From the NCBI GenBank assembly GCA_964016885.1, contig OZ024741.1:172918001-172982000 (forward strand): DNA of 64,000 nucleotides. The letters run 5' to 3'. This document shows, one piece after another, positions 49,919 through 64,000 of this stretch. This stretch comes from Eledone cirrhosa (Eukaryota). Each line of letters starts with the position of its first letter. The first letter of the stretch is position 1. The position numbers were made by a program, and so were the translations under genes. The notes under the pieces are model-generated. The model was not told where the DNA came from. It made no database searches and saw nothing but the letters and a program-made list of their open reading frames with translations.

Positions 49919-50793
49919 TGATATGGTCCAGATTTGTCAAATTATCCTGAGTTGGTTTTCTCGTTGCTTTGGTCCTTGTGGCTGAATCAAACGACCAGAA
50001 ATGGTATTACGTCGGGTCTACCACTACCTCCTTTAAATCCGCTGGTATTGTCATCGATTTTCGATTAAACATCCTGAACACCGTTATGTAACCACGCTCG
50101 CCAATAAGACCTGGCAACTGCGTGAGTACAACCGGCAGTTCACCTTAAAATGGGATAAATTATCCAGCGCTAGTGCATATCGGAGTGGATTGAAGTACTG
50201 CAGATTATGCAACCTTGAACTCTTTTATATCTTGAAATCTAAAAACAACTTACTAAATGACAGAATCGAACGATCGTTATACTGCAACCACAAACTGAAG
50301 GGTAAATTTTCTCACTATAAAATAACTTAACATAATATGAACCCGAGATTACTACACCATTTTCACGCTAACTAATTTCACTCAATAACTACTTTCTAAC
50401 TATACCCCCCCCCCCCACACACACACACACTACAAGCCAGTACCTTGCTTATCGTAATAAATGGATACTTAAGTGCGATCAGCAAACTACAACTACAAAC
50501 TCGGTGTATATCGCCTTTCCTTCCCCTTCTCTTAGCTTTTTTTTGTCCCCTCTCTCTCTCTTTCTCTTTCTCTCTCCCTCACCCTCTGTCTATCTCCCTA
50601 CTTCCCCACATCTATCAACCTGCTCTCTGTGGCAATAACTAATTCCAAACTTGACAATATCAACACAATGCCTAAGTTGTCACTTTGAGAATAAGCAGTA
50701 TAATAAAACCACTTGTTGGACCCCTATCATAACATTTAGATTAAGCTATTTGTATTCTTCAAACCACTCTCTCCCATTTCTCCGACCCCTACA

Positions 50794-50797
50794 TATC

Positions 50798-50857
<60 letters not shown>

Positions 50858-50860
50858 TCC
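50794..50860. repeat. (CT)n microsatellite
   Basis: Visible CT run within a pyrimidine-rich stretch. Confidence 0.95.
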
Positions 50861-51109
50861 CCTTCCTTCTCTCTTCCTTTTCTACTCTATCTTCCCCAAT
50901 AACTCCCTTTAAGAAATACAAGGAAATTTACAGTTTAGCCATTTGCTCTGGAGACATGGTAGAATAAACAGCATTTGAAAATTGAGTATCTGCAAATAAA
51001 TAACTACCAATTTGCACATAGTATGACTAGGCTGTATAACTACTATAGAAACATTTGTTAGCACTCGGAATAAATTACCTTTTTATGATGTCTACCTGTT
51101 TTATTATTC

Positions 51110-51115
<6 letters not shown>

Positions 51116-51147
<32 letters not shown>

Positions 51148-51220
51148 CATGCATACATACATACATACATACATACATACATACATACATACATACATAC
51201 ATACATACATACATACATAC
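51116..51220. repeat. (TA)n-(TACA)n compound microsatellite; 5' flank of retrotransposon copy 1
   Basis: Direct inspection. Confidence 0.98.
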
Positions 51221-52480
51221 TTATGCTGTGCCAATTCTAACGCCAACATTTGGCCTACTGAACTGGTCATTGCAAGAACTAAGTGAGATGGATGTTAGAA
51301 CTCGAAAACTTCTCAGTGTTACTGGGAACTTTAACATCAATGGTGATGTGGATACGCTATACTTCTCACGCAAGGAAGGTGGCCGGGGTCTAAAATCAAT
51401 ATTAACAACATATGAGACCCGGATAGTAACACTGAAGCAACACCTTCAACAGAGGAAAAAGGTTGGCAACCATCTTGCCCAGGTTTATGACCATGAAAAA
51501 AGAAATATCATTAGAATAGCGACTGATCTGGAGGAGAGATATGGAATAAAGCCTGATATAAATCTCTCACCCAGAGAAATCGGAAGATCCTATTCAATGT
51601 TCAAACAAGATAAAAAAATTGACCAATTTACAGAAAAAGTTGTGCATGGATACTTGAGGCGTAAAACACAGACCATAGGGAGGATAAACCACTCAAAAAG
51701 CCTGGCATGGAGTTCCGACAAGTTTATGACATCACACCTTGAGGGATATCTCTATGCAATACAGGAACAAGAACTCCCTACCAAATATCTGCTGCACAAA
51801 AGAGGAGGGCCAGCAGCTGACAATAAATGTAGGCTATGTAAAACAAAGATCGAGGATGTAAGCCACATTGTTGCCGGCTGCGAAAGAATGTCATCTCGCT
51901 ACTACCTCCCCATGAGACACGATGGGATAGCTAGAACCATCTGGAACGCACTTCGGAAAACAAAATTAACAACAAACGAGGCAGAATATATTGAGACAGA
52001 TGGCACTAAGGAATACTGGTGGAACCTGAAAATAAAAACTGCCACCAAATTAAAGCACAACCGGCCTGATATTGTTGTTTGGGACCACACATTGAAAACG
52101 TGTTCTGTTGTGGAGATCAGCTGCCCACTTGATGTAAACGTTGTCAGAAAAATACAGGAGACGGAGGACATCTACGGACCATTGATGAGGAGTTTACAAA
52201 TCCAGTATCCAAGATACACCTTTAGCTTCATACCCATCATTATTGGTGCTACGGGTTATATACCAACCCGCTTGGACCAAAGTATGACTGAACTTGGATT
52301 TGCGGACAAAAAGCGCAGCTCCCTAATTCATAGTCTAAAAATGGCTGCGATAGCTGGCACCTTCAAAATTTGCAAAACATTCTTGCGATTCAAGGGATGA
52401 CAATTTCTTTTCTTTTACAACCTTGCCACCAGGAAGGTGGCCGGTCAAAAATATATACTCGAAATTAAGAGAAAGAGAAA
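51217..52480 (+). mobile_element. 5'-truncated RLE-type non-LTR retrotransposon (R4/Dong-like clade), copy 1: RT C-terminus, CCHC knuckle, restriction-like endonuclease, ~80-bp 3' UTR
   Basis: Open frame 51228-52400 with RKEGGRGL, CRLCKTKIEDVSHIVAGC (CX2CX8HX4C), RHD, and NRPDIVVWD..VVEISCP (PD..D/E endonuclease). No poly(A); runs directly into (ACAT)n at 52481. Confidence 0.93.
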
Positions 52481-52506
52481 ACATACATACATACATACAT
52501 ACATAC

Positions 52507-54742
52507 GGCAAGATCTCATACGGCTGTTTACAGAAACCATTAAAGGCACACAAGAACTGCCCAGATGGTTATCAACTGCCACTACTCTCCTCATTCCCCA
52601 AAATAGCCAAACCACCCTTGCTAAAAATTACTGCCCAATAGCCTGCCAAAAGATCATGTATAAATTATATACTGGGTGCCTTAACCTGTTTTTACAGGAT
52701 CACTGTGCTACCAACAACATCATAACACCTGAGCAAGCTGGTGGAAAGAGGAAGGTGTGGGGTTACATAGATCACCTACTAACTAATAAAATGATTCAGG
52801 AAAAAACAACAAAGAATCGCAGAAACATGACTGTGGTGTGGCTGGACTATCAAAAAGCATTTGATAGTGTACCTCATGGGTGGATTATTAAGGCTTTACA
52901 GTTAGCCAAAGTCCCACAACCATTGGTAGCTGCTGTTGAAGGCCTGACCAAGAACTGGTACACCAATTTGATCCTTAGAGGTGAGAAGGAGCAAGTTAAG
53001 ACTGATAAGATACATTACCAGAAGGGCATCTTTCAGGGTGATAGCTTGTCAGTGCTACTCTTCGTTCTCTCACTGAATCCACTATATTACCTACTCAGGA
53101 AACAAGGTGGGCAAAGAAGTGGGTCCAGAAGTATCTCCCATCTTTTCTTTGTTGATGACCTGAAGTTGTATGGGCCAAATATCAATGACATCAAGAAACA
53201 ATTGGACCTCATTACACAATTTTCAACAGACATCAAAATGAAATTTGGTGAGTCCAAGTGTGCATATTTAGCAGTAACACGTGGAAGAGCTGTGCCCTCC
53301 TCTAGAAATCTAGAGATGAACGGCCTGACAATACAACCTCTACAGTCAGGTGACAACTACAGATATCTTGGACTGGATGAGAATGTCAGATATGATGGAC
53401 CCATAAATAAGGAGAGAACCAGAACTAAATACCTCAGAAGAGTAAAGAAAATATGGTCATCAGAACTGTCAGCGTACAACAAATACATTGCCCACAATAC
53501 TTATGCTGGGCCAATTCTAACTCCAACATTTGGCCTGCTGAACTGGTCATTGCAAAATCTAAGTGAGATGGGTGTTAGAACTCGCAAAATTCTCAGTGTT
53601 ACTGGGAACTTTAACACCAATGGTGATGTGGATAGGCTATACTTCTCACGCAAGGAAGGTGGCCGGGGTCTAAAATCAATATTAACAACATATGAGACCC
53701 GGATAGTAACACTGAAGCAACACCTTCAACAGAGGAAAAAGATTGGCAACCATCTTGCCCACGTTTATGAGCATGGAAAAAAATATCATTAGAATAGCGA
53801 CTGATCTGGAGGAGAGATATGGAATAAAGCCTGATATAAATCTCTCACCCAGAGAAATCAATGTTCAAACAGGATGAAAAAATTGACCAATTTACAGAAA
53901 AAGTTGTGCATGGATATTTGAGGCGTAAAACACAGACCTTAGAGGGGATAAACCACTCAAAAAGCCTGGCTTGGAGTTCCGACAAGTTTATGACATCACA
54001 CCTTGAGTGATATCTCTATGCAATACAGGAACAAGAACTCCCTACCAAATATCTGCTGCACAAAAGAGGAGGGCCAGCAGCTGACAATAAATGTAGGCTA
54101 TGTAAAACAAAGATCGAGGATGTAAGCCACATTGTTGCCAGCTGCGAAAGAATGTCATCTCGCTACTACCTACCAATGAGACACGATGGGATAGCTAGAA
54201 CCATCTGGAACGCACTTCGGAAAACAAAATTAACAACAAACGAGGCAGAATATATTGAGACAGATGGCACTAAGGAATACTGGTGGAACCTGAAAATAAA
54301 AACTGCCACCAAATTAAAGCACAACCGGCCTGATATTGTTGTTTGGGACCACACATTGAAAACGTGTTCTGTTGTGGAGATCAGCTGCCCACTTGATGTA
54401 AACGTTGTCAGAAAAATACAGGAGAAGGAGGACATTTACGGACCATTGATGAGGAGTTTACAAATCCAGTATCCAAGAAACACCTTTAGCTTCATACCCA
54501 TCATTATTGGAGCTACGGGTTATACCAACCCGCTTGGACCAAAGTCCGACTGAACTTGGATTTGCGGACAAAAAGCGCACCTCCCTAATTCATAGTCTAC
54601 AAATGGCTGCGATAGCTGGCACCTTCAACATTTGCAAAACATTCTGTCGATTCAAGGGATGACAATTTCTTTTCTTTTACAACGTTGCCACCAGGAAGGT
54701 GGCCGGTCAAAAAAATATACTCGAAATTAAGAGAAAGAGATA
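52507..54742 (+). mobile_element. 5'-truncated, degraded R4/Dong-like non-LTR retrotransposon, copy 2, including the reverse transcriptase domain
   Basis: RT motifs NYCPIAC, EQAGG, WLDYQKAFDSVPH, GIFQGDSLS, HLFFVDDLKLY, KFGESKC, YRYLG. The 3' 1.25 kb is highly similar to copy 1 but has a 2-nt deletion (~53,780), a 14-nt deletion (~53,860), a GGA>TGA stop (~54,008) and a 2-nt deletion (~54,522). Flanked by (TACA)n on both sides. Confidence 0.95.
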
Positions 54743-54812
54743 ACATACATACATACATACATACATACATACATACATACATACATACATACATACATAC
54801 ATACATACATAC
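54743..54812. repeat. (ACAT)n tract 3' of retrotransposon copy 2
   Basis: Direct inspection. Confidence 0.98.
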
Positions 54813-62025: not shown

Positions 62026-62597
62026 TACATACATACATGGTGGCTGCCAACTCGTTTTCGAGTACGGCCACTACTTTATATCCATGTAGGAGAACCCCTA
62101 CCGATGCGCTGAACGAGTGTGACTTTTTAGTCCAGTCAGCGACTTGAAAACTCTGGTACAAACACTACACTTGTGACAATTATTGACACATAGTGCTGGG
62201 CCCATGGTACCATGTGACGACAAGTGCAGAGAGATCTCCAGATATAAGTAATGCCTGTGACGTGAAGCTTTTATAGTGAGCAAAGGCACTGCACAAAGCC
62301 AGTCCCACTCTCTTAACCAAGATGATATTTACCAAAAAGAAGAACAAGTCAACATCATTGGATACCATCAGAGTTACAGGTGTTATATCAGAGTTTTCCT
62401 TCTCCTAGAATTCTGCCTTGACAAAGGCTAAGGGGTCATCTCTCCCGGTGATTTTGGATGGCCATTGACTCTTAAGAGCTCCATTGCCCTTTGACAGGAT
62501 TTGTTTTTAGTCCTGCAGGATGTCCAAAGTCACCCTCCTCACCAAGAAACCTTGGTTGGGTTGCCAGTTTAGTCGCCAACGACCAGACCATGGACAG
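62026..62597 (-). mobile_element. Bipartite non-autonomous RTE-derived element (5'-UTR-like part fused to last zinc finger and 3' tail)
   Basis: Minus strand has TCTAGGAGAAGGAAAACTCTGA (recalled RTE 5'-region motif), the CSVCTRVFKSLTGLKSHTRSAHR* finger, a CTCG-AAAA-CGAG stem-loop and a GGCAGCCACC-(ATGT)n tail; no endonuclease or RT in between. Confidence 0.7.
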
Positions 62598-62890
62598 GTT
62601 GCCCCCTCGTTATCGAGTATGGCCATTGCACGATATACGGTTATTAATAATTATTAATTAATTCTATCCTGCAATGCCTGTGCGTGAAGATATTTTTTAA
62701 AGTGAGGAAAGACTGTGCACTGAGCCAATCCCACTCTCTGAGCGACAGTAGCTATAACCCGAAAAGAAGAAAAGATCAACATCATCGGTAACTACTGAGC
62801 CGCAGGTTTTATATCGGAGTTATCCCAGTTTCCTGAGTTGCCTTCTCCTAGAAGAATACCCTGACAAAGGCTAGGGGTCCTTCACTCCCA
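62598..62890 (-). mobile_element. Diverged, shorter bipartite RTE-derived element
   Basis: 62670-62880 aligns with 62250-62437; 3' end has GGCCATACTCG-ATAA-CGAGGGGGCAACC; lacks the zinc-finger segment. Confidence 0.65.
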
Positions 62891-63020
62891 CTGGTTTAAC
62901 CGCGCGATCGGGTGTCCAGCCCGACTATTTCTATGTCCCCGCGCATATACCTACACATGCACCCATGTATATACACATATACATATACATATGTACATGT
63001 GCATATACATATTTACACAC

Positions 63021-63115
63021 TTTTGGATGGCCGTTGACTCTTATGAGTTCTTCCGCCCTTTTTCAGGTTATGTTTTTTGTCCTGCACGGTGTCCAAAATC
63101 ACCCTCCTCACCAAG
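63021..63115 (-). mobile_element. Fragment of the same RTE-derived 5' region
   Basis: TTTTGGATGGCCGTTGACTCTTA..TCACCCTCCTCACCAAG matches 62452-62546. Confidence 0.75.
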
Positions 63116-63420
63116 TAAAGATACATATATACATACATACATACACGCATACATACATGTAAAACATTCCAAAAATGTTGCATCTAATAACTGCATATAC
63201 ACATGTAGATACAAAGCGTATACACATGCACACATACAACTCAAAACATATACATCCACACATACAATAACATCCATACCTACATATGCATGCATGCAGA
63301 CACGCATACATATCTACCTAGTTGATGTTGTGTAAATTCCAATGAGAGAGTCTTGTGTCTATGTTAGAAACCGACTCTCTCTCTATTGGTAAAACTTTGT
63401 GAAATTATAAAACCAGAAGA

Positions 63421-63804
63421 ACATACATACATACACACATACATACATACATACATGGTGGCTGCCAACTCGTTTTCGAGTACGGCCACTACTTTACATC
63501 CATGTAGGATAACCCCTACCGAAGCGCTGAACGAGTGTGACTTTTTAGTCCAGCCAGCGACTTGAAACCTCTGGTACAAACACTACACCTGTGACAATCA
63601 TTGACACATAGTGCTAGGCCCATGGTAGGACAATTATTGACACATAGTGCTGGGCCCATGTGAGGACAAGTGCAGAGAGATCTCCAGATATAAAGCAATG
63701 CCTGTGCCGTGAAGCTTTTATAGTGAGCAAAGGCACTGCACAAAGCCAGTCCCACTCTCTTAACCAAGATGCTATTTACCAAAAAGAAGAACAAGTCAAC
63801 ATCA
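63421..63804 (-). mobile_element. 5'-truncated copy of the bipartite RTE-derived element, embedded in (TACA)n
   Basis: 63457-63804 is closely similar to 62039-62358; contains a ~36-bp internal tandem duplication (63593-63660); (ACAT)n on both sides. Confidence 0.85.
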
Positions 63805-63870
63805 TACATACATACATACATACATACATACATACATACATACATACATACATACATACATACATACATA
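63805..63870. repeat. (TACA)n tract
   Basis: Direct inspection. Confidence 0.98.
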
Positions 63871-64000
63871 ACACCTAAATGTGATAACAAGTGCAGACTC
63901 TGCAGAACTAACATCGAGGATATCACCCATGTCATCAGCAACTGCCCAAAGATGTCATCGCGGTACTATCTACCTATGAGGCATGATGTAGTGGCCAAAA
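63871..64000 (+). mobile_element. Third 5'-truncated R4/Dong-like retrotransposon (diverged subfamily), running off the window end
   Basis: Manual translation from 63871: TPKCDNKCRLCRTNIEDITHVISNCPKMSSRYYLPMRHDVVAK, homologous to DNKCRLCKTKIEDVSHIVAGCERMSSRYYLPMRHDGIAR of copy 1. Not in the ORF track. Confidence 0.9.

What the first reader, a model, noticed from the sequence alone, without database searches (positions are those of the whole stretch)
51116..54812. RLE retrotransposon apparently specific for (TACA)n, stacked head-to-tail inside one microsatellite
Seen: (TACA)n - copy 1 - (ACAT)6 - copy 2 - (ACAT)17. Same orientation, different 5' truncation points, nearly identical 3' ends (GAAATTAAGAGAAAGAGA) joined straight to ACAT repeats without poly(A). 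Different truncations and private mutations point to two independent insertions rather than a tandem duplication. Known: R4-clade elements with a PD..D restriction-like endonuclease are often target-specific (R4 in large-subunit rDNA, Dong in TAA repeats). Inference: this family targets (TACA)n. I do not know whether that specificity is already catalogued. A new sequence-specific TPRT enzyme would be of interest for gene insertion.
Basis: partly seen in the sequence, partly recalled or inferred. Interest (0 to 1): 0.75.

Follow-up and report, generated by a model that had tools for sequence, protein, structure and literature searches.

The report
Dong-like retrotransposon targeting ACAT microsatellites
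Two broken copies of a young jumping-gene family sit head-to-tail in one ACAT repeat, and across this (likely octopus) genome the family almost always lies in ACAT repeats facing the same way, likely because its own enzyme picks that repeat, which would be a new target for a known group of repeat-seeking jumping genes.

Summary
Observation confirmed. Two 5'-truncated copies (96.9% identical, different subfamilies) of a ~4.2-kb single-ORF non-LTR retrotransposon (RT, CCHC knuckle, PD..D..K restriction-like endonuclease, predicted N-terminal helical domain, no zinc fingers) lie in one (ACAT)n array. The family has 4,516 exact 3'-end matches genome-wide. In a position-ordered sample, 56 of 64 5' junctions and 67 of 73 3' ends have same-strand (ACAT)n within 40 nt, against 1.7% of control positions; (AT)n is far commoner yet unused. 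29 of 30 full-length 5' ends also abut it, so the repeat is not merely a 3' tail. The two flanks of a copy share locus-specific imperfect units (p=0.0005), which favours pre-existing arrays; no empty site was found. It works like Dong (R4 clade), whose published target is (TAA)n. I found no paper giving an (ACAT)n target; Repbase/Dfam and two key papers could not be checked. None of 16 full-length copies has an unbroken ORF. The scan noted this family before on other DNA of this genome. Verdict: new target variant of a known kind, moderate interest.

The parts
51116..51220 (+). Upstream microsatellite: (TA)n, then (ACAT)n with one variant unit; the last 4 nt (51217-51220) also match the element (microhomology at the 5' junction of copy 1)
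51221..52480 (+). Copy 1: 5'-truncated 3' part (about 1.26 kb of 4.2 kb), AA-type subfamily; open frame to the stop at 52398-52400, then 3' UTR
51828..51881 (+). CCHC zinc knuckle in copy 1
   Evidence: translation; zf-RVT match E 1e-5, just under Pfam's cut-off; C, H and C invariant in alignment A2
52065..52400 (+). Restriction-like endonuclease region (PD..D..K type) in copy 1; the conserved lysine position is substituted in this copy
   Evidence: P561, D562, K593, Y597 invariant among 35 aligned proteins
52481..52506 (+). Middle (ACAT)6.5 array: 3' flank of copy 1 and 5' flank of copy 2
52507..54742 (+). Copy 2: 5'-truncated (about 2.24 kb), TA-type subfamily; RT domain (FVDD at 53148-53159), then frameshifts and a stop in the 3' half
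   Evidence: RVT_1 E 1.5e-21
54743..54812 (+). Downstream (ACAT)17 array

Best explanation
These are two truncated copies of a young, abundant single-ORF non-LTR retrotransposon family that lies almost always in same-strand (ACAT)n microsatellites, likely an R4/Dong-clade element whose own protein is inferred to recognise and nick pre-existing (ACAT)n arrays and copy its RNA in by target-primed reverse transcription. Shown: structure, copy number, strand and phase bias at both ends, different subfamilies for the two copies. Inferred: the protein (probably its N-terminal Myb-like domain with the endonuclease) binds ACAT repeats mainly upstream of the cut and nicks the ATGT strand at a mostly fixed phase; the nick primes reverse transcription from the RNA 3' end; cDNA often stops early and is joined to the upstream array through 0-4 nt of microhomology. 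Each insertion leaves an array on either side, so later copies can land next to earlier ones in the same orientation, which gives head-to-tail stacks like this one.
For: 5' junctions, position-ordered sample: 56 of 64 with same-strand ACAT, 2 opposite; truncated copies only, 50 of 58; 3' ends 67 of 73, 0 opposite. Score-selected sample: 47 of 49 truncated, 17 of 18 full-length 5' ends, 57 of 65 3' ends. First 30 full-length 5' ends on C1: 29 of 30, background 1.7%. Genome-wide, 134 of 149 reverse-strand full-length 5' ends have CATACATA within 14 nt (one count per site read from the listing). Repeat class upstream: ACAT 55, AT 0 of 64, whereas control tiles are AT 889 and ACAT 65 of 13,320. 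Fixed 3' phase in 2,893 of 4,516. The two flanks of a copy share imperfect 8-mers: 251 against 121.6 +/- 20.6 permuted, p=0.0005, 136 insertions. Subfamily alleles separate the window copies. Protein: one frame of about 1,170 codons, RT + CCHC + PD..K, best solved relatives R2 proteins, compact helical N-terminal domain at pLDDT about 95. Dong targeting of (TAA)n and the Myb/SANT-like N-terminus are stated in PMC7998251 and PMC3812793 (passages).
Against: No empty (pre-insertion) site was found, so a pre-existing target is inferred. 8 of 64 5' junctions lack ACAT within 40 nt and 36% of 3' ends are off the main phase. 5' arrays are longer and purer than 3' arrays (median perfect run 33.5 against 15 nt, p=0.006; purity 0.64 against 0.47), which upstream binding would explain but so would array growth at insertion. 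8 of 10 control arrays of 16 nt or more abut this or a co-resident element (6 from one locus), so arrays and elements are entangled. The window copies share one substitution absent from 54 other copies. No target-site duplication length could be fixed. None of 16 full-length copies has an unbroken ORF.
Confidence: 0.8

Rival explanations
1. The arrays are made or lengthened by the insertion itself: the element needs only a short ACA(T) seed, and RT slippage or template jumping onto an (ACAU)n RNA tail, or repair synthesis, builds the long pure 5' array.
For: 5' perfect runs cluster at about 50-90 nt and exceed 3' runs; some 3' flanks hold only 1-2 units; most long control arrays abut elements.
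Against: 31 of 136 5' flanks are degenerate (purity below 0.3), and the two flanks share locus-specific imperfect units, p=0.0005; one copy sits in a higher-order CATA-containing satellite present on both sides (L038).
Confidence: 0.12
2. Target choice comes from base-pairing, not protein recognition: read-through transcripts carry an (ACAU)n tail that anneals to nicks or breaks in ATGT strands, with a loosely specific endonuclease.
For: The true 3' end cannot be separated from the target by sequence; 24% of 125 canonical 3' ends do not begin with ACAT; the opposite-strand short element also uses these arrays.
Against: A tail-annealing model does not predict long arrays upstream of the junction when the downstream side has 1-2 units. 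Variant bases directly after the terminus look target-derived. RLE elements are mostly sequence-specific (PMC4640811 passages).
Confidence: 0.06
3. The window pair is a local tandem duplication, or one template-jump event, rather than two separate insertions.
For: One shared substitution absent from 54 other copies; copy 1 ranks 3rd of 55 among copy 2's closest relatives.
Against: Copy 1 carries AA-subfamily alleles and copy 2 TA-subfamily alleles; copy 2 ranks 46th of 55 for copy 1; 12 and 28 unshared departures against 1 shared; the smallest clade holding both has 32 of 56 copies. A template jump between two different RNAs is not excluded.
Confidence: 0.05
4. Passive accumulation: the element inserts at random and survives only in microsatellites.
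For: Passive accumulation near CA repeats is suggested for Waldo-A/B (PMC3812793 passage).
Against: Strand bias of 56 to 2, fixed phase, avoidance of the 14-fold commoner (AT)n, and young age (1.6% mean divergence).
Confidence: 0.01

Closest known systems
Dong (R4 clade; Bombyx Dong, DongAg, snail DongBg, ostracod Dong1/2)
   Same: Single ORF with RT and restriction-like endonuclease, no N-terminal zinc fingers, likely Myb/SANT-like N-terminus, insertion in a microsatellite (PMC7998251, PMC3812793 passages). 30% identity over 687 aligned columns to a Spodoptera frugiperda protein, a species listed among R4/Dong carriers in PMC7998251; that it is the same protein was not checked.
   Different: The target is the tetranucleotide (ACAT)n instead of (TAA)n. 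No HDV-like ribozyme was detected at the 5' end, whereas Dong has one (PMC3774820 passages).
Octopus Dong-R4 families in repeat annotations (O. vulgaris: 5 recently active families, 1,129 insertions; O. bimaculoides Dong consensus)
   Same: Same annotation class; mean insertion length about 4.19 kb (4,732,901 bp / 1,129; PMC13282606 Table 1) matches the 4.2 kb found here. Closest named protein is from Argonauta hians, 53%.
   Different: No target is reported in the main text of PMC13282606 ('target' 0 occurrences) or PMC9115989 ('target site' 0). Identity with those families was not testable; supplements were not read.
R2 (28S rDNA-specific RLE element)
   Same: Best solved relatives by sequence and fold; TPRT mechanism; RT, CCHC knuckle and RLE.
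   Different: R2 has 1-3 N-terminal zinc fingers (PMC13580325 passage) and an rDNA target; about 20% structural-alignment identity.
Other microsatellite-specific non-LTR elements: Togen (TG)n, some HERO families, Kibi (TC)n, Koshi (TTC)n, Mino (AC)n
   Same: Microsatellite-directed insertion (PMC4640811, PMC3812793 passages).
   Different: Different clades (Kibi and Koshi are Tx1 APE elements, Mino R1; clade labels recalled) and different repeats.

Membership tests
RLE-type non-LTR retrotransposon | Single ORF with RT followed by CCHC knuckle and PD..D..K endonuclease | tested here: met
   L033 reads in one frame of about 1,170 codons with 2 internal stops; RVT_1 and zf-RVT above cut-off; invariant C, H, C, PD, K
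RLE-type non-LTR retrotransposon | Fixed 3' end, variable 5' truncation, no LTRs | tested here: met
   4,516 exact 3'-end matches against 324 exact 5'-end matches; 58 of 64 sampled copies truncated at scattered points
R4/Dong clade | No N-terminal zinc fingers | tested here: met
   No C2H2 motif in the N-terminal region; no such Pfam match
R4/Dong clade | Divergent N-terminal Myb/SANT-like domain | tested here: inconclusive
   Confident helical domain at residues 27-79; the family profile aligns weakly to the Myb-like stretch of R2Tg, independent E 0.89 (Myb label recalled); no Pfam Myb match; the isolated-domain model was too poor to search, pLDDT 53
R4/Dong clade | RT phylogeny grouping with named R4, Dong and Rex6 | not testable with these tools
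   No named reference sequence came back; homologs of 1,100-1,400 aa at 28-35% from insects and unnamed sources are much closer than R2
Dong in the strict sense | (TAA)n target | tested here: not met
   Flanks are (ACAT)n
R4/Dong clade | HDV-like self-cleaving ribozyme at the 5' end | tested here: inconclusive
   No ribozyme family in an Rfam scan of one full-length 5' UTR; fold z-score -1.39; pseudoknots were not modelled
R2 | 28S rDNA target and N-terminal zinc fingers | tested here: not met
Sequence-specific retrotransposon | Endonuclease cleaves the target sequence specifically | not testable with these tools
   Needs biochemistry; junction statistics only

The most novel reading that the evidence does not exclude
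An R4/Dong enzyme retargeted to a tetranucleotide repeat that also lengthens the upstream (ACAT)n array as it inserts, so the family manufactures its own landing sites and is a main source of this genome's long ACAT microsatellites, shared with a second R4-like family and an opposite-strand RTE-derived element.
Probability: 0.15. Interest if true: 0.72.

Novelty: new variant of a known kind. Interest (0 to 1): 0.42.

Why it matters
How RLE retrotransposons change targets is open, and only R2 has solved structures among the matches. A Dong-like protein without zinc fingers that selects (ACAT)n, a second family about 45-55% identical that ends in the same repeat, and (per earlier unreviewed notes, not tested here) TAA-targeting Dong families in the same genome would give a natural comparison for finding the residues that set the target. 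It also bears on why octopus genomes hold mixed element stacks in microsatellites. As a gene-insertion tool it is less attractive than R2: the target is a dispersed microsatellite rather than one safe locus (inference), and no intact ORF was seen in 16 full-length copies.

Tried and rejected
Empty-site search: (a) runs X1, X2, X3 and X5 laid on the locus showed no joint skipping the elements among the 15 of 199 joints listed, and the repeats were skipped by the tool; (b) a test for adjacent outer flanks elsewhere among held loci, 137 insertions, gave only element-to-element neighbours in the part shown (output cut; full neighbour table); (c) the window's left flank is another repeat whose copies continue differently, and the right flank is unique. 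Target-site duplication length could not be fixed inside repeats; one locus (L032/L008) suggests about 4 nt. Rfam scans of the 5' UTR and of the short co-resident elements gave only AT-rich chance matches below gathering scores. The single-sequence fold of the N-terminal domain failed. Tandem duplication and passive accumulation were rejected. My first idea that upstream short elements were 3'-truncated by this LINE was dropped once they proved to be 5'-truncated elements on the opposite strand. Run X1 held only 0.05 of the flank's words and is not used as evidence of an orthologous site. Papers not held: Kojima and Fujiwara 2004, Fell et al. 2025, Biedler et al. 2015.

Full report
Observation. 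The sequence shows (TA)n and (ACAT)n at 51116-51220, copy 1 at 51221-52480, (ACAT)6.5 at 52481-52506, copy 2 at 52507-54742 and (ACAT)17 at 54743-54810. The copies are co-oriented, end alike without poly(A), and are 96.9% identical over the shared 1.27 kb. Copy 1 keeps an open frame with the CCHC knuckle and PD..D..K endonuclease region; copy 2 has the RT domain (RVT_1, E 1.5e-21) followed by frameshifts and a stop. Both are 5'-truncated and cannot encode the full protein.

The family. The genome (G000, 3.0 Gb) has 4,516 exact matches to a 23-nt 3'-end motif and 324 to a 23-nt 5'-end motif; both are lower bounds on copy number. Of 23 long loci examined, 16 held both ends; most span 4.15-4.22 kb, they average 97.3% pairwise identity, and none has an unbroken ORF. 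One (L033) reads in a single frame of about 1,170 codons with two internal stops. Among 56 copies spanning the last 1.26 kb, mean divergence from the column majority is 1.6%, so the family is young. The closest named protein is from Argonauta hians (53%); the host is therefore likely an octopod (inference).

Target test. For a sample not chosen by score I took 70 loci around 3'-end matches in positional order on contig C1 (matches already held were skipped, and this is a small part of the 4,516). They gave 73 copies with a 3' end, 64 of them with the 5' junction in hand; 9 ran beyond the locus. Same-strand (ACAT)2 lay within 40 nt upstream in 56 of 64 (opposite strand 2), downstream in 67 of 73 (opposite 0), on both sides in 50 of 64 and on at least one side in 64 of 64. 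Control: 1.7% of 39,840 positions in 20 fixed 10-kb regions, which themselves include some of these elements. A score-selected sample gave 47 of 49 truncated and 17 of 18 full-length 5' ends. The first 30 full-length 5' ends on C1 gave 29 of 30, and 134 of 149 reverse-strand full-length ends genome-wide have CATACATA within 14 nt. By repeat class the upstream 30 nt were ACAT in 55, AT in 0, opposite-strand in 1 and none in 8 of 64, while control tiles are AT 889 and ACAT 65 of 13,320. The 3' junction is in one phase in 2,893 of 4,516 ends. In a RAD-seq run of another sample, 447 reads (possibly copies of few molecules) show a further truncated copy with a CATA-repeat loose end at its 5' side. 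Because truncation points are scattered, the 5' repeat cannot be an encoded part of the element.

Was the array there first? No empty site was recovered. Indirect evidence favours a pre-existing array: across 136 insertions the two flanks share 251 imperfect 8-mers against 121.6 +/- 20.6 in 2,000 permutations (p=0.0005), and 31 upstream flanks are degenerate. Against a purely passive target, upstream runs are longer and purer than downstream ones (median 33.5 against 15 nt, p=0.006), and 8 of 10 long control arrays abut one of these elements (6 from one locus). I read the asymmetry as binding mainly upstream of the cut, as recalled for R2, but growth of the array at insertion is not excluded.

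Two insertions or one duplication? The terminal TA or AA is linked to internal alleles (p down to 1e-10), so it is element-encoded and marks subfamilies. Copy 1 is AA-type and copy 2 TA-type. They have 12 and 28 unshared departures and 1 shared; the shared one is absent from the other 54 copies, and copy 1 ranks third among copy 2's neighbours, but copy 2 ranks 46th of 55 for copy 1. Two source elements are therefore likely. Stacking is common and needs no special mechanism: 9 of 137 insertions have a copy of the same family directly upstream and 12 directly downstream in the same orientation.

Protein and clade. RT, CCHC and PD..K residues are invariant in 35 aligned homologs. R2 proteins are the best solved matches by profile and by fold. 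A model of 880 residues (mean pLDDT 87.9) has a compact helical N-terminal domain, which aligns only weakly to the Myb-like stretch of R2; no zinc fingers are present. This matches the description of R4/Dong in PMC7998251. No named Dong, R4 or Rex6 sequence came back, so no reference tree was built and clade membership is likely rather than shown. No HDV-like ribozyme was detected.

Co-tenants. The same arrays hold a second R4-like family in the same orientation (about 45-55% protein identity; 27 of 28 3' ends followed by ACATA) and a short element of about 606 bp with 23,421 exact motif matches. The latter lies on the opposite strand, is 5'-truncated in 16 of 30 sampled copies, ends in what reads as a C2H2 finger remnant like the RTE described in PMC9115989 (my reading), and is less selective: ACAT at its fixed end in 16 of 30, otherwise mostly (AT)n. 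Both occur in the window at 62038-64000.

Literature. Passages read: PMC7998251 and PMC3812793 (Dong targets (TAA)n in insects, molluscs and cnidarians), PMC4640811 (most RLE clades target-specific; Togen, HERO), PMC3774820 (Dong ribozyme), PMC9115989 (octopus Dong, no target), PMC13580325, PMC7650587 (nothing relevant). Of PMC13282606 I read the first of three parts and term passages: five recently active Dong-R4 families in O. vulgaris, no mention of a target. Eight full-text searches (listings only, apart from the papers above) showed no (ACAT)n, (CATA)n or (TACA)n target for a retrotransposon. Repbase, Dfam, Kojima and Fujiwara 2004, Fell et al. 2025 and all supplements were not seen and could already list it.

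Earlier notes of this scan. Three unreviewed notes on other DNA of this genome describe the same two families and the opposite-strand element in CATA/ACAT repeats. I had reached this reading before looking, and they are not independent evidence. Others report TAA-targeting Dong families in this genome, which I did not test.

Verdict. It works like Dong and likely belongs to the R4/Dong clade, with a target that differs from the published one. New variant of a known kind; interest 0.42.

Noticed in passing
window 1-48527: A 48.5-kb tandem satellite with a 33-bp unit and 129-bp higher-order period, about 85% matches.
   Followed up: no
window 63159-63419 and 63870-64000: Fragments of a second R4-like LINE family, same orientation, also bounded by (ACAT)n; about 45-55% protein identity to the family of the finding; 27 of 28 3' ends followed by ACATA.
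   Followed up: partly
window 62038-62592, 62600-63118, 63456-63804: Short opposite-strand, 5'-truncated elements of two related families, likely RTE-derived, lying in (AT)n and (ACAT)n; one has 23,421 exact motif matches genome-wide.
   Followed up: partly
window 50501-51115: Another dispersed repeat (1,078 candidates) that ends at the same point before (TA)n in several copies and occurs in inverted pairs at some loci.
   Followed up: partly
L038:1982-2346 (5' UTR of a full-length copy): A 26-bp unit of the element's 5' UTR, present once or twice in other copies, is expanded to about 20 tandem copies.
   Followed up: no
L004 and L170, 5' junctions: Opposite-strand (ATGT)n upstream of the junction; L004 also holds an inverted internal piece of the element, as in 5'-inversion events.
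   Followed up: no
L179 and L181 (C1, about 1 Mb apart): Two full-length copies with near-identical flanks, suggesting a segmental duplication.
   Followed up: no
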